Shown here: in pieces, positions 4,684 through 33,704 of the stretch | How the letters are laid out: the number at the start of each line of letters is the position of its first letter | Position numbering within the stretch: the stretch's first letter is position 1 | Virus record (IMG/VR): IMGVR_UViG_3300014533_000149 | DNA: 38,497 nt | Origin: a virus | Lineage: Duplodnaviria; Heunggongvirae; Uroviricota; Caudoviricetes | Reading direction: 5' to 3' (one strand) | Translations under genes and position numbers: made by a program | Notes under the pieces: generated by a model | What the model saw: only the letters and a program-made list of their open reading frames with translations | Database searches by the model: none | Told to the model about the DNA's origin: nothing

Positions 4684-4700
4684 ATTACCTTTATGGTAAT
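4684..4700. promoter_or_regulatory. Operator-like 17-bp palindrome ATTACC-TTTAT-GGTAAT
   Basis: Perfect dyad; member of a 13-copy intergenic family. Confidence 0.5.
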
Positions 4701-4736: not shown

Positions 4737-4756
4737 TACTGTATAAATATACAGTT
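4737..4756. promoter_or_regulatory. LexA (SOS) box
   Basis: TACTGTATAAATATACAGTT, a CTGT-N8-ACAG dyad with AT-rich spacer, about 18/20 match to the E. coli LexA consensus; ~20 bp upstream of the 4776 start codon. Confidence 0.65.
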
Positions 4757-4775
4757 ATTGCATGGAGAAGATAAG

Positions 4776-5033
4776 ATGCAGCGGTATCACTATCCACTGG
4801 AAGACGGATTTACCGAAAGGATTCACACGCCGGGAGGCGTCAGGTCACTGGTGGAGGGATCGCACTTGATGAAATTACTCCGGGATCTCGATAAGGATGG
4901 ATTTAATGTCGATGGCCCACTTGCCGAACTGACTGCACTGATTAACTACGTCACCAGCTCACAGATGTCTATGCGGGATCTGCAAACACATCTCGACTAT
5001 TGTGCCGAACAATTACGAAAACAAACCAGATAA
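4776..5033 (+). CDS. Small SOS-box-associated antirepressor-like protein (standalone Ant C-terminal-like domain)
   Basis: 85 aa from ATG 4776 with SD GGAGAAG; ~45% identical by eye to the C-terminal ~65 aa of the Bro-N protein at 5348..6040; LexA box immediately upstream. Confidence 0.55.
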   Translation: MQRYHYPLEDGFTERIHTPGGVRSLVEGSHLMKLLRDLDKDGFNVDGPLAELTALINYVTSSQMSMRDLQTHLDYCAEQLRKQTR

Positions 5034-5063
5034 GGTTTGCAATTACCAAGTGGAGTGCTTATA

Positions 5064-5080
5064 TTTACCTTTGAGGTAAA
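5064..5080. promoter_or_regulatory. Operator-like palindrome TTTACC-TTTGA-GGTAAA
   Basis: Perfect dyad, flanked by inverted repeat GGAGTGC (5052-5058) / GCACTCC (5091-5097). Confidence 0.45.
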
Positions 5081-5163
5081 TTTACATCGCACTCCTCTTG
5101 TGCCATAGTAATCGGGCACTGGCAAAATCCAGTGCCGGGATTGGTCTCCCGGATTACTACAGA

Positions 5164-5193
5164 GGCACATATGCCGCATAAGCGGTTTTTTTT
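5164..5193 (+). terminator. Candidate rho-independent terminator
   Basis: Short GC hairpins (GGCA-CATA-TGCC, CCGC-ATAA-GCGG) followed by an 8-T run; stems are short. Confidence 0.35.
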
Positions 5194-5347
5194 ATGTGTA
5201 AAGCGCACCTATTCTATGGTGGGCTGTGTGGGGGCACCGAAAGGTGCGCCGGGTTCCTTTGTAGCCGGTAAGACCAACTCTGCACAGTTCACCACCATCT
5301 GATTGGTCTCAGCGGTGGTGATTAACCTAACTACAAAGGTGATCGCC

Positions 5348-6040
5348 ATGAATACCAAACCTTCCATCTTTTCCTTTGAGTCATCCTGCCAGATCCGTAT
5401 GTTCATGATTGACGGAGAACCTTGGTTTGTCACCAAAGATGTGTGCAATGCTTTGAATATTGATGTTACACAAGCGAGAAAACTTGATAAAAAAGGCTGG
5501 AACAAAAAGGGGCTGTATTCAATACAGACCCCTGGTGGAATACAAGAACTATCCATCGTTTCAGAATCAGGTCTCTACATCCTTATTCTGCGTTGCAAAG
5601 AGGCAATGACTGAGGGAACGAGAGCATTCAGATTTCTTGAATGGGTTACAGGCGAGGTTCTTCCTCAGATCCGCCGCACCGGAAGTTACATTAAAAACTC
5701 GCTACCGCAGGAAGAACGCATAAAGATGGTTGCCGACCAGGTAGCCAACGCCACGGCGTCAGCAGTAATGCAGGCGATGAAGATAGAGAACAAAACCTAC
5801 AGTGCTCCACTGAAGCCCGGCTACCGTAGCCTGATTCATTCTCCGTCTGGTGTTCTCGGCCTGACGGAGAACTCACTGCTGATGAATCTGCTGAACCAGT
5901 TACAGGACGACGGGCACGACGTATCGGGCGCGGCGGCGGAGCTGACCACCATGTTCTGCTACATCGTTGGTGTGAGCAAATGCCTGCGTGATATCCAGAC
6001 GCACGCGGAGTACATCAACGACAAGGCTGGGTTCTTCTGA
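5348..6040 (+). CDS. Antirepressor (Ant)-like protein with Bro-N N-terminal domain
   Basis: ATG 5348 with SD AAAGGTGA; N-terminal region matches the Bro-N fold pattern (FMIDGEPWFVTKDVCNAL...); C-terminal ~65 aa paralogous to the 4776..5033 product. Confidence 0.65.
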   Translation: MNTKPSIFSFESSCQIRMFMIDGEPWFVTKDVCNALNIDVTQARKLDKKGWNKKGLYSIQTPGGIQELSIVSESGLYILILRCKEAMTEGTRAFRFLEWVTGEVLPQIRRTGSYIKNSLPQEERIKMVADQVANATASAVMQAMKIENKTYSAPLKPGYRSLIHSPSGVLGLTENSLLMNLLNQLQDDGHDVSGAAAELTTMFCYIVGVSKCLRDIQTHAEYINDKAGFF

Positions 6041-6111: not shown

Positions 6112-6128
6112 ATTACCTTACGGGTGAT
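6112..6128. promoter_or_regulatory. Operator-like imperfect palindrome ATTACC-TTACG-GGTGAT
   Basis: One half-site perfect, the other one mismatch. Confidence 0.35.
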
Positions 6129-23554: not shown

Positions 23555-23643
23555 ATCAATGACTCCGTACGCAATTAAATTATTACCAATTTAACCACAT
23601 ATGATTTATTTATCGTAGGAGGTTGACATTTAACGCACGAATT

Positions 23644-23660
23644 ATTACCTTTCAGGTAAT
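23644..23660. promoter_or_regulatory. Operator-like palindrome ATTACC-TTTCA-GGTAAT
   Basis: Perfect dyad upstream of the portal-proximal part of the late operon. Confidence 0.5.
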
Positions 23661-23980
23661 CAAAAAGTTCATTCCGGTTACTAACCTGACTGGCTTGTCG
23701 TTAAATTGAACAGGTGGAGTGAGCTTTTATTTTGAGCAGTACGGCGTATGGCACATGCGCCGATAGCGGTCTGGGTACGTTTAAGGGGCACCCTCCCTTG
23801 CTCGGGCAAACGAACCAGGTAGCCGGAATGTGCAAGTCGAGCGGTTTTATTCCGCGCACGGGGATTCACCATCCCGGCGATTCGGTGTGACGCCTCGGAA
23901 GAGACGAGGTACAACGATGAGAGCATTTATGGATCCGCGACAAAGTGTGGCGCCTTAACAGGCTAAGTGCTCTCAGCGTT

Positions 23981-24057
23981 GTGGCATTAGCTCAGTTGGA
24001 CAGAGCAACCGCCTTCTAAGCGGTTGGTCGCAGGTTCGAATCCTGCATGCCACGCCA
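23981..24057 (+). tRNA. tRNA-Arg (anticodon UCU)
   Basis: 77 nt; cloverleaf by hand: acceptor GTGGCAT/ATGCCAC, D-stem GCTC/GAGC, anticodon stem ACCGC/GCGGT with loop CTTCTAA, T-arm GCAGG-TTCGAAT-CCTGC, 3' CCA; differs from E. coli argU in stems as recalled. Confidence 0.85.
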
Positions 24058-24257: not shown

Positions 24258-24274
24258 ATTACCTTATGGGTAAT
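24258..24274. promoter_or_regulatory. Operator-like palindrome ATTACC-TTATG-GGTAAT
   Basis: Perfect dyad ~30 bp upstream of the 24306 start. Confidence 0.5.
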
Positions 24275-24305: not shown

Positions 24306-25196
24306 ATGCTTGACTTCATCCGTGACATTTACTCCTCTTTCCGCCAAGCATCTCTTGAGCGGGTGAAAAGCCCGTTCCTTGGGGCATTTGTTTTTTCCTG
24401 GCTTTGCTTTAATTGGCAGATGTTAGCAATTCTATTTTTTAGTTCTAAGGATATTGAAAAGCGCCTTGCTATTATTAATGGCTCTTTCGGCATCGTCAGC
24501 TTTTTAATTGCGCCAATATGCACTACAGCATTGATAGTTATCCTTTTACCGCAAATTAATAAATTAATTACAATAATACAAGATAAACCTAACTCAGACA
24601 CAATTGAAATGAGCCTTGCATCTAAAATAAAGATCGCCGAACTGCAGCAACTATTAGCAGAAAATGAAGCAAGAAAGAAACTTGCTGATAAAAAAGAAGA
24701 ACGCTTCATTGAAGAGAATATTATTTCAATAAAAAAAGACCATGAAAAAGCAATAGATAACCTTAAAGACAAAGAAAGTAAAATCTTAAATCTCACGGAC
24801 ACAATAACTGAACTTCAGAGCAAACTGGTTAAAGCTGAGGCCACTCTCAAAGTTGAACAGGAGTCAAGATCCCAAGTGCAGAATGAATTGATTATTGAAA
24901 AAGAGAACAAGCGGAAATTAGAAGACAACATTCTGCACCTTAATTTAAGTTTAAAAAAAAACCAATCAGAATTGGCCATTGCAAAAGAAGCCTATGATAA
25001 TACCTTGATGGCTTATAATGAACTTAACACAACATTAAAAAAAGCAGAAAGCTCAATAATAAACTTCAATGCTAACTTTCCTTTTTTAACTGACATAAAT
25101 AACAGCACCCCAAATACATACTTAAAAATAAATAAAAATGCATGGGAGCATTTAGTTAGTTTAAATTTAAGTCTAAAGGAGAAAATACAAAAATAA
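24306..25196 (+). CDS. Membrane-anchored coiled-coil protein (moron; candidate exclusion/abortive-infection function)
   Basis: 296 aa; two hydrophobic helices in the first ~90 aa then a long Lys/Glu/Leu-rich coiled-coil-like region; strongly AT-rich; opposite strand to the flanking late genes. Confidence 0.55.
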   Translation: MLDFIRDIYSSFRQASLERVKSPFLGAFVFSWLCFNWQMLAILFFSSKDIEKRLAIINGSFGIVSFLIAPICTTALIVILLPQINKLITIIQDKPNSDTIEMSLASKIKIAELQQLLAENEARKKLADKKEERFIEENIISIKKDHEKAIDNLKDKESKILNLTDTITELQSKLVKAEATLKVEQESRSQVQNELIIEKENKRKLEDNILHLNLSLKKNQSELAIAKEAYDNTLMAYNELNTTLKKAESSIINFNANFPFLTDINNSTPNTYLKINKNAWEHLVSLNLSLKEKIQK

Positions 25197-26689: not shown

Positions 26690-27282
26690 TGATTACCATC
26701 CTGACGTTCTTTGAGTCGCTTCCTGGCTGCTGCTATGCGATCAGCAATTGTCACATTCACATTAACATCCAGACGTTCTTTGAACGCGTTGACATCAACA
26801 TGCTTACCAATCAGCTCAAGGTTCTTCACCTTGTCAGGCCATTTAATTTTTTTGAGGATTGTCTCTATCGAATCCTCGTTCATGTTCATGATGGTCGATG
26901 ACAGATCAAAGCCACTAAGCGTAGTGCGCCAGATTTTCGGCCACTCACGGATTGGTTTAAGGCTCCCATCGTCGTTGAGGATGTCGATCACGTCCATCTG
27001 GTCGATCTCCACCAGGCGCATGAGAACGTAATCAGCACTGACGCGCATTCGTTTGTTGCGCTCCTCCATCAACTCGGCAATCCGTTTTTGAATGCGTTCA
27101 TCGCGCATCATGACACTGGCTTTAACTGCCGCTGTATTTGGAGAGAATCCTGCGTTAATCGCTGCCTGAGTCTGGTTTTCAGGCGTTTTGATGTATGACT
27201 GGCAATAAGCCTCCTGCATTGCTGTTAGTGGCTTAAATTGCGTTGATTTGCGTTTATAGGTTTTAGGTTCAGCAGGCATCAT
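26686..27282 (-). CDS. terS: Terminase small subunit
   Basis: About 198 aa from ATG 27282; small-terminase-like N-terminal DNA-binding region; directly upstream of terL. Confidence 0.65.
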   Translation of the reverse strand: MMPAEPKTYKRKSTQFKPLTAMQEAYCQSYIKTPENQTQAAINAGFSPNTAAVKASVMMRDERIQKRIAELMEERNKRMRVSADYVLMRLVEIDQMDVIDILNDDGSLKPIREWPKIWRTTLSGFDLSSTIMNMNEDSIETILKKIKWPDKVKNLELIGKHVDVNAFKERLDVNVNVTIADRIAAARKRLKERQDGNQ

Positions 27283-27289
27283 AACCACC

Positions 27290-27321
27290 GTGGTAATAGT
27301 TACCGTTGTGGTAATAGTACC
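27290..27321. repeat. Tandem direct repeats GTGGTAATAGTTACC / GTGGTAATAGTACC
   Basis: Two copies 18 bp apart immediately upstream of terS; each contains a GGTAAT half-site in everted arrangement. Confidence 0.5.
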
Positions 27322-30349: not shown

Positions 30350-30366
30350 TTTACCTCTAAGGTAAT
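30350..30366. promoter_or_regulatory. Operator-like palindrome TTTACC-TCTAA-GGTAAT
   Basis: Overlaps the RBS/5'UTR of the 30347 gene and the -10 of the candidate promoter. Confidence 0.5.
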
Positions 30367-30393
30367 TAAAAACCACATAAGACACGAAATCAA
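30365..30393 (-). promoter_or_regulatory. Candidate sigma70 promoter for the nin-like operon
   Basis: Minus strand: -35 TTGATT (30393..30388), 17-bp spacer, -10 TTTAAT (30370..30365); flanked by two operator-like palindromes. Confidence 0.4.
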
Positions 30394-30411
30394 TAGATTT
30401 TAGAATATTTT

Positions 30412-30428
30412 ATTACCCAACAGGTAAT
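30412..30428. promoter_or_regulatory. Operator-like palindrome ATTACC-CAACA-GGTAAT
   Basis: Perfect dyad just upstream of the candidate -35. Confidence 0.5.
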
Positions 30429-30464
30429 TATCAAGACGTAAAAAAATGCGCTATCGCGCTGGTA

Positions 30465-32374: not shown

Positions 32375-32428
32375 AATAGATATGAAAAGACCGCCGGGTG
32401 GCGGTCTACAGAGGGTTGTGGCTGGATA

Positions 32429-32659
32429 TCATGAGTAGAAGAAGTATGCCAGTTCTGCTTTTGAGCGCAGCCATTGTCTTGTTTTACAGGCTTTAAAAAG
32501 CCCATTCATCAATACTTTACCTGGCATTTTGCGCTTACCTGTTAAGTGAGTCTGGATATAGTGACTCGTCGTTCCGGCTTCCTGTGCGAAGGCTTCACGC
32601 TCATCCGGAGTAAGTGCAAGCCAGTGCTTTTTGAAATCGAAATGTCCGTTATCGCTCAT
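32429..32659 (-). CDS. Cro-like (YdaS-like) HTH regulator
   Basis: 76 aa; divergent from the repressor-like gene; helix-turn-helix-like core GTTSHYIQTHLTGKRKMPG. Confidence 0.55.
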   Translation of the reverse strand: MSDNGHFDFKKHWLALTPDEREAFAQEAGTTSHYIQTHLTGKRKMPGKVLMNGLFKACKTRQWLRSKAELAYFFYS

Positions 32660-32684
32660 AGCTATTGCCTGATATTTATTTCAG

Positions 32685-32713
32685 ATAATAAATATTCACC
32701 CATAAGGTAACAA
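32685..32713 (-). promoter_or_regulatory. Candidate PR-like promoter for the cro-like gene
   Basis: Minus strand: -35 TTGTTA (32713..32708), 17-bp spacer, -10 TATTAT (32690..32685); overlapped by the 32695 operator. Confidence 0.35.
32695..32711. promoter_or_regulatory. Switch-region operator-like site TTCACC-CATAA-GGTAAC
   Basis: Imperfect dyad; overlaps the candidate -35. Confidence 0.45.
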
Positions 32714-32725
32714 AAATCAAGGATA

Positions 32726-32742
32726 GTTACCTATGGGGTGCA
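32726..32742. promoter_or_regulatory. Switch-region operator-like site GTTACC-TATGG-GGTGCA
   Basis: Imperfect dyad, abuts the next site. Confidence 0.35.
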
Positions 32743-32759
32743 TTTACCTGTTGGGTAAT
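32743..32759. promoter_or_regulatory. Switch-region operator-like site TTTACC-TGTTG-GGTAAT
   Basis: Near-perfect dyad ~55 bp upstream of the repressor-like start. Confidence 0.5.
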
Positions 32760-32813
32760 ATTGCTTTAAATTGAATCATCTACTGATTCATATACGAGGC
32801 GATTTTCCAGAAA

Positions 32814-33398
32814 ATGAAAAGTATCCAGGACGTCCGCAGGCAAAATCTCAACGACTTGATCGACCGTGAATTCAATGGTGTTCAGACGCGGATGGCAGAA
32901 AAACTTGGAACTCAGGCAAATCTGGTAAACCGCTGGGCTCTTGGCAAGAAGGTTATCGGCGACCAGGTTGCGCGAAAAATTGAAGCTGCCGCCAATAAAC
33001 CCCGTAACTGGCTTGATATCGATCGCTCGCTTTCTCAGGAAGGTTTTCAGCCTGTCGGCCCAAGCGACATTGGTCAGCTGGCGGCTCACAACCTGGAACG
33101 CTGGATGAGCGAAAGCCGCGACCTTTCAACACAGGGAAAACTTCACCGCGCATCCGGCGTCGCCCAGGTGACAATCAGCCGCCTGTTAAACAATGAGGTC
33201 AGCGTTTCCATTTCCACCCTGGAGAATGTTGCATCCGCATTCGGGCGTCACGGCTATGAATTACTGATTCACCCGCACGACCCTGCGACCATCAACTATG
33301 ACCGCTCGCGCTACGCATTGTTACCCGAAACCGAGAAAGCAAAGATCGAAAGTTACATTGAATTTGTCATCAACCAGAACGAAAAAAACAAACAATAA
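32814..33398 (+). CDS. Tandem-HTH repressor-like protein, no peptidase S24 autocleavage domain seen (putative prophage repressor)
   Basis: 194 aa with two Cro/C1-type HTH-like segments (about aa 5-65 and 100-165); weak SD; divergent from the cro-like gene; own terminator downstream. Confidence 0.6.
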   Translation: MKSIQDVRRQNLNDLIDREFNGVQTRMAEKLGTQANLVNRWALGKKVIGDQVARKIEAAANKPRNWLDIDRSLSQEGFQPVGPSDIGQLAAHNLERWMSESRDLSTQGKLHRASGVAQVTISRLLNNEVSVSISTLENVASAFGRHGYELLIHPHDPATINYDRSRYALLPETEKAKIESYIEFVINQNEKNKQ

Positions 33399-33420
33399 AA
33401 TCATATTTTTCAGTAAGTAA

Positions 33421-33443
33421 GCCGCCTTCTGGCGGCTTTTTTA
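33421..33443 (+). terminator. Rho-independent terminator after the repressor-like gene
   Basis: GCCGCC-TTCT-GGCGGC followed by 6 T. Confidence 0.7.
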
Positions 33444-33454
33444 TTGTCTACACA

Positions 33455-33471
33455 ATTACCTTAAGGGTAAT
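33455..33471. promoter_or_regulatory. Operator-like palindrome ATTACC-TTAAG-GGTAAT
   Basis: Perfect dyad ~19 bp upstream of the candidate -35. Confidence 0.5.
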
Positions 33472-33489
33472 TTTTTTAACTCATATCTA

Positions 33490-33518
33490 TTGACACCAAA
33501 CCAAATACGCATAATCAT
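33490..33518 (+). promoter_or_regulatory. Candidate PL-like early promoter
   Basis: -35 TTGACA (33490..33495), 17-bp spacer, weak -10 AATCAT (33513..33518) running into the next operator; same layout as the 30365..30393 promoter. Confidence 0.4.
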
Positions 33519-33533
33519 TACCTCAACGGTAAC
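33517..33533. promoter_or_regulatory. Operator-like palindrome ATTACC-TCAAC-GGTAAC
   Basis: Overlaps the candidate -10/+1 and supplies the SD (GAGGTAA) for the 33552 ORF. Confidence 0.45.
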
Positions 33534-33551
33534 AGACCGAGGTAACAAGTT

Positions 33552-33704
33552 ATGCAGTGGAAAATCATCAACGGTTGGTACTGCGTTACTGCATGCGGAT
33601 TCATGAGCTGGAAGTTCCGCACCTTACAGGAAGGCATTAAGTGGGCTTTCGTCAGCAAAGAAGCTCGCGATGTGGCCAACGATAACGAGATATGGGAGGG
33701 CTGA
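33552..33704 (+). CDS. Small hypothetical protein (50 aa), below the ORF-track cutoff
   Basis: Hand-translated: MQWKIINGWYCVTACGFMSWKFRTLQEGIKWAFVSKEARDVANDNEIWEG; SD GAGGTAA; first ORF of the plus-strand early operon. Confidence 0.3.
   Translation: MQWKIINGWYCVTACGFMSWKFRTLQEGIKWAFVSKEARDVANDNEIWEG

What the first reader, a model, noticed from the sequence alone, without database searches (positions are those of the whole stretch)
32660..32813. Immunity switch with three clustered operator-like sites between divergent genes
The 154-bp region between the cro-like gene (minus) and the tandem-HTH repressor gene (plus) carries three operator-like dyads, two abutting. One overlaps a candidate leftward promoter (-35 TTGTTA, -10 TATTAT). 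The repressor gene has almost no SD, like leaderless lambda cI from PRM, and its own terminator; a second operator-flanked promoter follows for the recombination operon. The layout mirrors lambda OR/PR/PRM and cI-tL-OL/PL but uses a non-lambda operator sequence.
Basis: partly seen in the sequence, partly recalled or inferred. Interest (0 to 1): 0.6.

Follow-up and report, generated by a model that had tools for sequence, protein, structure and literature searches.

The report
Known phage immunity switch operators
This is the repressor/cro control region of a phiV10/epsilon15-type E. coli prophage; its three conserved repressor-binding dyads are real, but they belong to a repressor-antirepressor immunity system already described in sister Salmonella phages, so the finding is ordinary.

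Summary
The 154-bp gap (32660-32813) between a cro-like gene and the repressor gene holds three TTACC-N5-GGTAA dyads: O1 32696-32710, O2 32727-32741 and O3 32744-32758. O2 and O3 abut. The window has 10 perfect copies of this dyad where about 0.04 are expected, and nearly all are intergenic. The arms stay invariant and the central 5 bp vary across genera. At least 118 viral contigs carry the same O2/O3 pair 45-59 bp upstream of a repressor homologue.

The window is a phiV10-like Uetakevirus. Its repressor is a full-length homologue (42% identity) of Salmonella phage SPC32H Rep (PDB 5D50). Rep is a non-cleavable tetramer that is inactivated by a LexA-controlled antirepressor, and the window also encodes that antirepressor with a LexA box. 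The epsilon15 GenBank record already annotates the same dyad as "repressor" binding sites.

The lambda-like layout holds: divergent promoters, a terminator, and a second promoter flanked by operators. The lambda-like mechanism does not. There is no S24 cleavage domain. Published SPC32H work assigns the second HTH-like domain to dimerisation. Operators lie in at least 7 regions of the genome. A leaderless repressor mRNA is not supported.

Novelty: already known. Interest: low. One possibly new detail is that dyad spacing is quantised, with 62 bp dominant.

The parts
32429..32659 (-). cro-like gene (phiV10 p41 / epsilon15 gp39 orthologue), 76 aa
   Evidence: ORF. It matches PHROG 35 'transcriptional repressor' at E 5.6e-13. 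The AlphaFold model (pLDDT 87) has five helices. Its best PDB fold matches are YdaS, 434 repressor, P22 c2 and C-proteins at TM 0.53-0.66, but E-values are not significant. A 35%-identical homologue is paired divergently with an S24-type repressor in a Paraburkholderia locus.
32388..32407 (-). terminator-like hairpin just after the cro-like gene
   Evidence: annotated as a terminator at the homologous place in phiV10
32685..32720 (-). leftward (cro-ward) promoter. Best-conserved reading: -35 TTGATT 32720-32715, 17 nt, -10 GAATAT 32697-32692.
Evidence: Searches give the sequences. AAATCAA (reverse complement TTGATTT) is invariant in 11 sequences, and a TTG sits at this fixed place in most of 60 unique variants. 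No transcription start data exist.
32696..32710 (.). operator O1 (TCACC-N5-GGTAA), inside the leftward promoter's spacer and -10
32727..32741 (.). operator O2 (TTACC-N5-GGTGC), between the two divergent -35 elements; weakest match in this lineage, perfect in the Salmonella and Klebsiella lineages
32744..32758 (.). operator O3 (perfect TTACC-N5-GGTAA), abutting O2
32743..32771 (+). candidate repressor promoter: -35 TTTACC 32743-32748 (the left arm of O3), 17 nt, -10 TTAAAT 32766-32771; weak
   Evidence: TTTACC is invariant, and an xxxAAT hexamer lies 17 nt downstream in nearly all of 60 variants. It was not detected by the consensus scan. Inferred; there are no TSS data.
32814..33398 (+). repressor gene rep (194 aa)
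   Evidence: Full-length match to SPC32H Rep (5d50_A), E 4e-42. It is 100% identical to the phiV10 p40 and ZX5 ORF21 repressors. ZX5 ORF21 overexpression abolishes free phage and lowers lysis-gene transcripts by more than 99.9%. Pfam finds only HTH families and no Peptidase_S24.
33419..33446 (+). rho-independent terminator of rep
   Evidence: annotated in phiV10
33456..33470 (.). upstream operator of the PL-like promoter (perfect dyad)
33490..33518 (+). PL-like promoter TTGACA-17-AATCAT for the recombination operon
   Evidence: 10/12 match. CTATTGAC is invariant in 6 lineages.
33518..33532 (.). downstream operator of the PL-like promoter (perfect dyad over -10/+1), 62 bp from the upstream one
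30351..30434 (-). second 62-bp operator pair. It comprises dyad 30413-30427, which fills the spacer of promoter TTGATA-16-TAAAAT (30434-30407), and dyad 30351-30365, which lies over the RBS of the DUF1064 gene.
   Evidence: homologous pairs occur in epsilon15, SPC32H and Tyrion
27282..27314 (.). operator pair 18 bp apart (27282-27296 with 1 mismatch, 27300-27314 perfect), abutting the small-terminase start codon and preceded by a terminator
   Evidence: the same pair occurs in epsilon15 (one of the two sites is annotated 'repressor') and in Tyrion
23645..23659 (.). single operator between the portal operon and a tRNA-Arg unit, over the -10/+1 of TTGACA(23624-23629)-17-TACCTT
24259..24273 (.). 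single perfect operator upstream of ORF 24306-25196
4685..4699 (.). perfect operator between the tailspike gene and the small ant gene
   Evidence: the homologous site is annotated 'repressor' in epsilon15
4739..5033 (+). LexA box CTGTATAAATATACAG (4739-4754) and the small antirepressor gene ant (4776-5033, 85 aa)
   Evidence: Searches show the box. Ant matches 5d50_E 'Anti-repressor protein' at E 3.5e-46.
5037..6040 (+). second antirepressor module. In order: promoter TTGCAA-17-TATATT (5037-5065), operator 5065-5079, isrK-like RNA 5116-5192, C4 antisense RNA 5212-5299, and a large BRO-N/Ant gene (ORF 5303-6040, probable ATG at 5348).
6113..6127 (.). 1-mismatch dyad downstream of the large ant gene
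   Evidence: function not examined

Best explanation
The 154-bp region is the OR-type control region of the immunity system of a phiV10/epsilon15-like podovirus (genus Uetakevirus). The three dyads are binding sites for the phage repressor Rep, encoded at 32814-33398.

How the three sites are placed:
- O1 lies inside the leftward promoter of the cro-like/replication operon, so bound Rep blocks lytic transcription.
- O3 forms the -35 and spacer of the weak rightward rep promoter, so Rep probably limits its own synthesis.
- O2 lies between the two -35 elements.

How Rep works (inferred by homology): Rep is an orthologue of SPC32H Rep, a homotetramer in which two pairs of N-terminal HTH domains each read one dyad. 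One tetramer can therefore hold two dyads. That fits the abutting O2/O3 pair (17 bp) and the recurrent 62-bp pairs that bracket the PL-like promoter (33456/33518) and the nin-region promoter (30413/30351).

The same dyad guards at least 7 regions of the genome, so Rep acts as a genome-wide silencer rather than a two-operator switch.

Induction does not go through RecA-stimulated cleavage. SOS removes LexA from the box at 4739-4754, and the small antirepressor Ant (4776-5033) is made. Ant binds the C-terminal domains of Rep and releases it from DNA. A second, Rep-repressed antirepressor sits behind a C4-type antisense RNA and would then reinforce the switch.

Shown here: the sites, their non-random distribution and conservation, the promoter overlaps, and the homologies to the solved Rep and Ant. 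Inferred: which sites one tetramer bridges, the direction of autoregulation, and the role of the cro-like protein.
For: - Dyad statistics: 10 perfect copies against 0.04 expected. All but 1660 (inside ORF 1394-1810) and the 27282/27300 pair lie outside ORFs of at least 100 aa. That pair falls only in the TTG-extended 5' part of the terS ORF, upstream of the likely ATG.
- Footprint: arms are invariant and central bases hypervariable (0/30 against 11/15, Fisher p = 1.3e-7). The three-site architecture is conserved in 11 sequences from E. coli, Enterobacter, Superficieibacter, Erwinia, Klebsiella, Salmonella, Citrobacter and Scandinavium.
- Link to Rep: of 120 IMG/VR contigs carrying the O2/O3 signature, 118 have a Rep homologue (40-100% identity) that starts 45-59 bp downstream, and 119 have the cro-like gene. 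The presumed recognition stretch NLVNRW is invariant wherever the dyad arms are TTACC/GGTAA. Five loci with diverged DNA-binding domains have no perfect dyad.
- Homology: Rep matches 5d50_A at E 4e-42 over residues 1-190, and Ant matches 5d50_E at E 3.5e-46. There is a LexA box in front of ant. Domain roles and the tetramer/palindrome binding of SPC32H Rep are taken from PMC9986798 and PMC9638917.
- Prior annotation: the epsilon15 GenBank record annotates seven sites of the same dyad as 'protein_bind: repressor, lysogeny'.
- Function of the identical protein in phage ZX5: overexpression abolishes free phage and cuts holin and endolysin transcripts by more than 99.9%.
- Promoter overlap: four promoter-like hits overlap dyads where about 0.7 are expected. 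These include both 10/12 hits in the right half of the window.
- Spacing: 134 of 238 unique adjacent dyad pairs are 61-64 bp apart and 25 are 17-18 bp apart.
Against: - I could not read any direct binding data for this phage. The primary SPC32H and epsilon15 papers are not held, so the exact operator sequences tested there are unverified.
- The epsilon15 record does not annotate the three sites in the rep-cro gap.
- O2 has two mismatches in the E. coli lineage.
- The rep promoter is only a weak consensus match that the scan did not detect, so the direction of autoregulation is uncertain.
- In ZX5, antirepressor overexpression lowered rep transcript by 75%. This could mean Rep activates its own promoter, which is the opposite of what the position of O3 suggests.
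- A 62-bp loop closed by one tetramer is physically tight, and two tetramers are equally possible.
Confidence: 0.85

Rival explanations
1. A true lambda-type switch. In this reading Rep dimers bind O1 and O2 cooperatively, activate a PRM-like promoter that gives a leaderless rep mRNA, and fill O3 last. Induction would be by RecA-stimulated self-cleavage.
For: There are three sites between divergent repressor and cro-like genes. The gene order rep-terminator-operators/promoter-recombination genes parallels lambda. No Shine-Dalgarno lies within 5-10 nt of the ATG. In ZX5 the rep transcript falls when an antirepressor is overexpressed. A relative of the DNA-binding domain is fused to Peptidase_S24 in a Paraburkholderia locus.
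Against: Rep has no S24 domain. It is a full-length homologue of the tetrameric, antirepressor-controlled SPC32H Rep. The site that would be 'filled last', O3, is the only perfect dyad. No -10 hexamer is placed for a start at the ATG. Conserved -35/-10-like elements lie about 45-70 nt upstream, and SD-like purine runs occur in many lineages. Operators occur in at least 7 regions, not two.
Confidence: 0.07
2. The dyads are mainly the targets of another protein and only incidentally of Rep. Candidates are the cro-like protein acting as a lytic repressor on the same sites, or a phage or host factor.
For: The cro-like protein has a lambda-repressor-like HTH fold, and its family always accompanies the dyads. 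In lambdoid phages Cro and CI share operators (established knowledge). The epsilon15 record places IHF sites next to several dyads.
Against: Dyads occur at promoters that must be silent in a lysogen, namely terminase, portal, ant and PL. That fits the prophage repressor. SPC32H Rep is reported to bind palindromic sites. The epsilon15 annotators assigned the sites to the repressor. Shared use by the cro-like protein is not excluded and would complement the main explanation rather than replace it.
Confidence: 0.07
3. The dyads are chance palindromes in an AT-rich intergenic region, or are merely parts of promoter hexamers.
For: Intergenic phage DNA is AT-rich. The arms can double as a -35-like (TTTACC) or an SD-like (AGGTAA) element.
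Against: There are 10 perfect copies against 0.04 expected. There are 15-18 copies with at most 1 mismatch in each of three other genomes, against about 0.6 expected. Arms are invariant while centres vary. Spacings are fixed at 17/18 and 62 bp.
Confidence: 0.01

Closest known systems
Rep-Ant immunity system of Salmonella phage SPC32H (Kim & Ryu, J Virol 2013; Kim et al., PNAS 2016; PDB 5D50/5D4Z)
   Same: Same genus. Rep is homologous over its full length (42% identity, E 4e-42) and the small Ant is about 85% identical (read from the alignment), with a LexA box in front of ant. The gene order is the same, and the TTACC-N5-GGTAA dyads lie at the same places, with 17-, 30- and 62-bp spacings.
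   Different: Different host (E. coli) and a diverged Rep. O1 is flipped and lies 31 rather than 30 bp from O2. O2 is degenerate. The PL region has two dyads, not three. There is an extra Rep-operator/isrK/C4/large-Ant module that I did not see in SPC32H. I could not read the primary papers.
Epsilon15 gp38 repressor and its annotated 'repressor' binding sites (GenBank AY150271; Kropinski et al., Virology 2007)
   Same: Seven sites of the same dyad are annotated as repressor-binding. These lie at terS, portal, ant/tailspike, PL (three sites) and the nin region, all homologous to sites in the window.
   Different: The three sites in the rep-cro gap of epsilon15 (33341, 33358, 33388) fit the motif but are not annotated in that record. 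The window's lineage is phiV10-like, and the phiV10 record annotates no operators in the 7.4 kb around rep that I inspected.
Lambda OR/PR/PRM and OL/PL
   Same: Three operators lie between divergent repressor and cro-like genes. Operators overlap the lytic promoter. The repressor gene is followed by a terminator and an operator-controlled promoter for recombination genes.
   Different: No S24 domain and no self-cleavage. Rep is a tetramer with an antirepressor. The dyad arms are 5 bp apart, and spacings are 17/31 bp rather than 23-24 bp. The only perfect site overlaps the repressor promoter. Operators also sit at late-gene and ant regions. A leaderless mRNA is not supported.
P1/P7 immunity (C1 operators dispersed over the genome; immI = operator-c4 RNA-icd-ant)
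   Same: One repressor acts on many dispersed operators. An antirepressor gene lies behind a C4-family antisense RNA and a repressor-controlled promoter.
   Different: Rep is not a C1 homologue. The operators are symmetric dyads, not the asymmetric 17-mer of P1 (from my knowledge of P1, not tested here). There is an additional LexA-controlled small Ant.
Rco of Bacillus plasmid pLS20 (TetDloop tetramer, DNA looping; PMC9986798)
   Same: The architecture is an N-terminal HTH domain plus a C-terminal p53-like tetramerisation domain. It has paired operator sets and an antirepressor-like partner.
   Different: Unrelated host and element. Rep has an extra middle dimerisation domain. Looping by Rep has not been shown.

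Membership tests
Uetakevirus (epsilon15/SPC32H-type) Rep-Ant immunity system | Repressor homologous to SPC32H Rep over the DNA-binding, middle dimerisation and C-terminal tetramerisation/Ant-binding domains, with no S24 peptidase | tested here: met
   5d50_A at E 4e-42, residues 1-190 aligned; Pfam finds only HTH families; domain roles from PMC9986798
Uetakevirus (epsilon15/SPC32H-type) Rep-Ant immunity system | Small antirepressor homologous to SPC32H Ant | tested here: met
   window 4776-5033 against 5d50_E, E 3.5e-46
Uetakevirus (epsilon15/SPC32H-type) Rep-Ant immunity system | LexA box at the ant promoter | tested here: met
   CTGTATAAATATACAG at 4739-4754, 21 nt before the ant ATG
Uetakevirus (epsilon15/SPC32H-type) Rep-Ant immunity system | ATTACC-N5-GGTAAT dyads at the positions annotated as repressor sites in epsilon15 | tested here: met
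Uetakevirus (epsilon15/SPC32H-type) Rep-Ant immunity system | Rep binds the dyads as a tetramer and is released by Ant | not testable with these tools
   Reported for SPC32H in secondary sources; not measured for this phage
Lambda-type CI/Cro switch | Three operators between divergent repressor and cro genes, overlapping the lytic promoter | tested here: met
Lambda-type CI/Cro switch | Repressor with an S24 (LexA-like) self-cleaving C-terminal domain | tested here: not met
   No Peptidase_S24 hit. By contrast a distant relative of the DNA-binding domain in L015 does have one.
Lambda-type CI/Cro switch | Leaderless repressor mRNA from an activator-dependent PRM | tested here: inconclusive
   No suitably placed -10 hexamer. 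Conserved promoter-like elements predict a leader of about 36 nt. No TSS data.
Lambda-type CI/Cro switch | Operators confined to OR and OL | tested here: not met
   14 dyads in at least 7 regions
P1/P7-type immunity | Many dispersed operators for one repressor | tested here: met
P1/P7-type immunity | C4-family antisense RNA upstream of ant | tested here: met
   RF01695 at 5212-5299, 78.6 bits (gathering score 45)
P1/P7-type immunity | C1-family repressor with an asymmetric operator | tested here: not met
   Rep is an HTH_3/YdaS-type protein homologous to 5D50. The operators are symmetric dyads.
Mycobacteriophage-type 'stoperators' | Asymmetric repressor sites inside transcribed regions, oriented with transcription | tested here: not met
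   Sites are palindromic, and the perfect sites are intergenic. However, two pairs overlap ribosome-binding sites or start codons rather than promoters.

The most novel reading that the evidence does not exclude
The dyads may form a genome-wide silencing system built for a four-headed repressor rather than a lambda-like set of independent operators.

Across about 140 loci, adjacent dyads sit at quantised distances. The distances are 62±1 bp (dominant), 17-18 bp and 74-76 bp, irrespective of where the promoter lies between them. The 30-31 and 48 bp classes are seen only in the rep-cro triple.

This would mean that one Rep tetramer either clamps two abutting dyads or closes a very small loop of about 6 helical turns around a promoter. 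Pairs lying on start codons (terS, the DUF1064 gene) would then act as roadblocks.

The hypervariable central 5 bp could tune affinity or immunity specificity by indirect readout.
Probability: 0.3. Interest if true: 0.4.

Novelty: already known. Interest (0 to 1): 0.2.

Why it matters
The finding adds little that is new. The repressor, the antirepressor and the operator dyad of this phage genus have been described for epsilon15 and SPC32H, and a repressor of identical sequence was tested in phage ZX5.

Its practical value is annotation. This immunity region is present in 539 of 5426 complete E. coli genomes, where the genes are still labelled 'hypothetical protein' and 'helix-turn-helix domain-containing protein' and no operators are marked.

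The fixed 62-bp and 17/18-bp dyad spacings and the arm/centre conservation pattern give concrete, testable constraints on how the Rep tetramer engages DNA. A secondary source says this mechanism 'has not been extensively characterized'.

Tried and rejected
- Primary papers: I tried to read epsilon15 (PMC2698709 and PMID 17825342) and SPC32H (PMC4983836, PMC3807360). None is held.
- Remembered consensus: full-text searches for a remembered epsilon15 consensus string and for ATTACC/GGTAAT plus repressor found nothing relevant. My recollection that the epsilon15 paper reports a 17-bp hyphenated inverted repeat is therefore only a lead. The GenBank annotation is the evidence I use.
- Leaderless rep mRNA: I looked for a -10 hexamer 6-8 nt before the ATG. 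There is none in the window's lineage. The epsilon15 group has TACAAT only 4 nt before the ATG, which is too close, and it is not conserved. Rejected as unsupported.
- Alternative rep promoter using TAATAT (32756-32761) as the -10: it has no -35 and is less conserved than TTTACC-17-TTAAAT.
- IHF site reading of the invariant AAATCAA: a poor match to the IHF consensus. A -35 reading fits better.
- Rfam at gathering thresholds finds no RNA family inside 32400-33600.
- Fold search for the cro-like protein gave only non-significant E-values (at least 0.75). All top hits were lambda-repressor-like HTH domains, so the fold class is suggestive, not proven.
- Co-variation between recognition helix and operator arms could not be tested properly. 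Every Rep with TTACC arms has the same NLVNRW stretch, and the five diverged relatives are too distant.
Full report
**What the window is.** The 1.4 kb around the finding is 100% identical to an 'Escherichia phage BP9' record and 98% identical to phiV10, ZX5, TL-2011b and other phiV10-like podoviruses. It is about 77% identical to the Enterobacter phages Tyrion and BUCT554. phiV10 belongs to the genus Uetakevirus, together with Salmonella phages epsilon15 and SPC32H. The same 261-bp stretch occurs in 539 of 5426 complete E. coli genomes, so this is a very common prophage.

**Checking the observation.**
- Three copies of TTACC-N5-GGTAA lie in the gap: O1 32696-32710 (1 mismatch), O2 32727-32741 (2 mismatches) and O3 32744-32758 (perfect).
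- Taken as 17-bp sites, O2 and O3 abut. Centre-to-centre distances are 31 and 17 bp.
That promoter lies between perfect dyads at 33456 and 33518.
- The motif is far from chance. The window has 10 perfect copies; 0.038 are expected from composition, and 200 Markov simulations gave a mean of 0.01. All but 1660 (inside ORF 1394-1810) and the 27282/27300 pair lie outside ORFs of at least 100 aa. That pair falls only in the TTG-extended 5' part of the terS ORF, upstream of its likely ATG.

**Conservation.** An alignment of the gap from seven phages, extended to eleven sequences with prophages of Superficieibacter, Erwinia, Klebsiella, Citrobacter and Scandinavium, keeps all three dyads in register while most other positions change.
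- Across the eleven sequences, 5/30 arm positions vary, against 15/15 central positions and 84/109 other positions.
- Among four E. coli prophage variants the figures are 0/30, 11/15 and 17/109. Fisher tests give 1.3e-7 for arms versus centres and 9.5e-6 for centres versus the rest.
- This is the footprint expected of a dyad operator read through its arms.
Of these, 118 encode a Rep homologue (40-100% identity) whose ATG lies 45-59 bp (mode 55) after O3, and 119 encode the cro-like protein. The two contigs without a Rep hit were not examined further.

**The proteins.**
- Rep matches PDB 5D50 chain A, the repressor of Salmonella phage SPC32H, over residues 1-190 (E 4e-42, 42% identity).
- Pfam sees an HTH_3 domain at residues 106-147 and a weak YdaS-type HTH at 21-61, and no Peptidase_S24.
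- According to PMC9986798, SPC32H Rep has an N-terminal DNA-binding domain and a middle dimerisation domain. A C-terminal domain tetramerises the protein and binds the antirepressor.
- PMC9638917 summarises that Rep binds DNA as a tetramer. It also reports that the domain pairs reading the palindromic sites come from different dimers, and that tetrameric Ant disassembles the complex.
- So 'tandem HTH' is correct as a sequence description but misleading about function.
- The presumed recognition stretch NLVNRW is invariant in six Reps that are only 42-78% identical, matching the invariant arms.
- A protein identical to the window's Rep was tested in phage ZX5. Overexpression removed free phage and cut endolysin and holin transcripts by 99.99% and 99.97%.
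- The cro-like protein matches PHROG 35 ('transcriptional repressor', E 5.6e-13). It has no Pfam family and occurs only in enterobacterial prophages. It models confidently (pLDDT 87) as a five-helix domain. Its best fold matches are YdaS, 434 repressor, P22 c2 and C-proteins (TM 0.53-0.66), but E-values are not significant.
- A Paraburkholderia locus pairs a 35%-identical cro-like gene with a repressor that has the same N-terminal sequence type but a Peptidase_S24 C-terminus. This supports the view that the pair descends from a CI/Cro-type module in which the cleavage domain was replaced.

**Induction module.** A near-consensus LexA box (CTGTATAAATATACAG, 4739-4754) precedes an 85-aa gene (4776-5033) that matches the SPC32H antirepressor in 5D50 (E 3.5e-46). 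This reproduces the SPC32H arrangement as summarised in secondary sources, and it excludes a lambda-type cleavage mechanism as the main route.

**Promoters.**
- Leftward: AAATCAA (reverse complement TTGATTT) is invariant in the eleven-sequence alignment. Most of 60 unique variants keep a TTG at this fixed position (TTGATT, TTGCGA, TTGCAA, TTGTCT).
- With TTGATT (32720-32715) as the -35, the -10 is GAATAT (32697-32692) in this lineage and AATAAT in the Salmonella and Klebsiella lineages. O1 fills the spacer and the -10.
However, their -10 becomes TGTTAT in three of five related lineages.
- Either way, O1 overlaps the promoter.
- Rightward: no consensus promoter is detected. TTTACC (32743-32748, the left arm of O3) is invariant, and a hexamer ending in AAT (TTAAAT, TTTAAT, GATAAT, CACAAT, TTCAAT) lies 17 nt downstream in nearly all variants.
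- This predicts a start near 32778 and a leader of about 36 nt.
- The ATG has no Shine-Dalgarno at 5-10 nt. GAGG lies 14 nt upstream in this lineage, and other lineages have AAGGG or GGGAAA closer in.
- Nothing supports a leaderless transcript.
- Because the only perfect dyad (O3) covers this promoter, negative autoregulation is the simplest inference. The ZX5 observation that antirepressor overexpression lowers rep mRNA by 75% leaves positive control or cro-mediated repression open.

**Beyond the gap.** The same dyad occurs at the following places:

| Site(s) | Position |
|---|---|
| 33456 / 33518 | flanking the PL-like promoter, 62 bp apart; the proximal site covers -10/+1 |
| 30413 / 30351 | 62 bp apart; one fills the spacer of TTGATA-16-TAAAAT, the other covers the RBS of the DUF1064 gene |
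| 27282 / 27300 | 18 bp apart, abutting the small-terminase start |
| 23645 | over the -10/+1 of a TTGACA promoter facing a tRNA-Arg |
| 24259 | upstream of ORF 24306-25196 |
| 4685 | between the tailspike gene and ant |
| 5065 | at a promoter for an isrK/C4 RNA/large-Ant unit |
| 6113 | downstream of the large ant gene |

- Epsilon15, SPC32H and Tyrion each have 15-18 sites with at most 1 mismatch (about 0.6 expected) in the homologous places and with the same spacings.
- The epsilon15 GenBank record annotates seven of them as 'protein_bind: repressor, lysogeny', though not the three in the rep-cro gap.
- Over about 140 loci, unique adjacent pairs cluster at 61-64 bp (134 of 238, of which 117 at exactly 62), 17-18 bp (25), 48 bp (22, O1-O3), 74-76 bp (26) and 30-31 bp (6).
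- Four promoter-like hits overlap dyads where about 0.7 are expected. These include both 10/12 hits in the right half of the window.

**Mechanism.**
- Shown: the sites, their distribution and conservation, their overlap with promoter elements, and the orthology of Rep and Ant to the solved SPC32H proteins.
- Taken from the literature on the orthologue: tetrameric Rep with two DNA-reading units, and release by LexA-controlled Ant.
- Inferred: in the lysogen, Rep at O1 blocks the cro/replication operon and Rep at O3 (with O2) limits rep transcription. Paired dyads elsewhere are each held by one tetramer, either side by side (17-18 bp, about 58 Å) or through a loop of about six helical turns (62 bp). 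On SOS, Ant strips Rep from all sites at once, and the Rep-repressed second antirepressor reinforces the switch.
- The bridging geometry, the sign of autoregulation and any role of the cro-like protein at these sites are untested.

**Comparison and verdict.** Membership in the lambda type fails on three defining points: the cleavage domain, the restriction of operators to OR/OL, and (inconclusively) the leaderless PRM transcript. The element is a member of the epsilon15/SPC32H Rep-Ant system on every feature I could test. It works partly like P1 immunity, with dispersed operators and a C4 RNA in front of an ant gene, but has neither a C1-type repressor nor asymmetric operators. The operator dyad is already annotated in a public record of a sister phage. 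The repressor has been tested in an identical-sequence phage, and its orthologue has been solved. I therefore rate the finding as already known and of low interest. The only possibly new details are the quantised dyad spacing and the hypervariable operator centres.

Noticed in passing
window 5037-6040: A second antirepressor module resembles P1/P7 immI. In order it has a promoter TTGCAA-17-TATATT, a perfect Rep-type dyad (5065-5079), an isrK-family RNA (5116-5192, 74.7 bits), a C4 antisense RNA (5212-5299, 78.6 bits), and a 245-aa BRO-N/Ant ORF. The C-terminus of that ORF (residues 164-240) is homologous to the small SPC32H Ant (E 1.8e-13). This is the 'ORF4 anti-repressor' type that was tested in phage ZX5.
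   Followed up: partly
window 4776-5033 versus 32814-33398: The small antirepressor is far more conserved between the E. coli and Salmonella phages than its target Rep. It is about 85% identical to SPC32H Ant (read from the alignment), whereas Rep is only 42% identical.
   Followed up: no
window 32701-32705, 32732-32736, 32749-32753: The central 5 bp of the three dyads vary more than the rest of the intergenic DNA among otherwise very similar E. coli prophages (11/15 against 17/109 positions, p about 1e-5). Most of these changes come from one 86%-identical variant. This might reflect relaxed constraint, or tuning of affinity or immunity by indirect readout.
   Followed up: partly
window 27282-27314 and 30351-30365: Some dyads lie on ribosome-binding sites or start codons (small terminase, the DUF1064 gene) rather than on recognisable promoters. 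The terS pair directly follows a terminator. This suggests a roadblock role or an unrecognised promoter.
   Followed up: partly
window 23624-24057: A perfect -35 TTGACA (23624-23629), followed 17 nt later by TACCTT overlapping dyad 23645, faces a structured untranslated stretch of about 300 nt and a tRNA-Arg(tct) gene (23981-24057). The tRNA may therefore be under Rep control.
   Followed up: no
window 32405-32432 (+): A promoter-like site, TCTACA-16-TATCAT (9/12), lies just beyond the end of the cro-like gene and points through it toward rep. This is the position a lambda PRE-like establishment promoter would have. It could equally be a chance match.
   Followed up: no
L015 859-1917 (Paraburkholderia MAG contig DATJJN010000006.1): A homologue of the cro-like protein (35% identity, E 2e-12) is paired divergently with a repressor that begins MKSIQDVRR like Rep but ends in a Peptidase_S24 domain. 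The Uetakevirus Rep therefore looks like a CI-type repressor whose cleavage domain was exchanged for dimerisation/tetramerisation domains.
   Followed up: partly
window 32600-32860: This immunity region is present in 539 of 5426 complete E. coli genomes, at 97.7% identity or more in nearly all of them. RefSeq labels the two genes only as 'hypothetical protein' and 'helix-turn-helix domain-containing protein'.
   Followed up: yes
L002 32479-32493, L003 2294-2308, L012/L014 1994-2008: The Salmonella and Citrobacter lineages carry a third PL-region dyad 74-76 bp beyond the proximal one. It lies over the RBS of the first PL gene and follows a small hairpin. The E. coli lineage keeps only a half-site there (CGAGGTAAC, window 33539-33547).
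   Followed up: no
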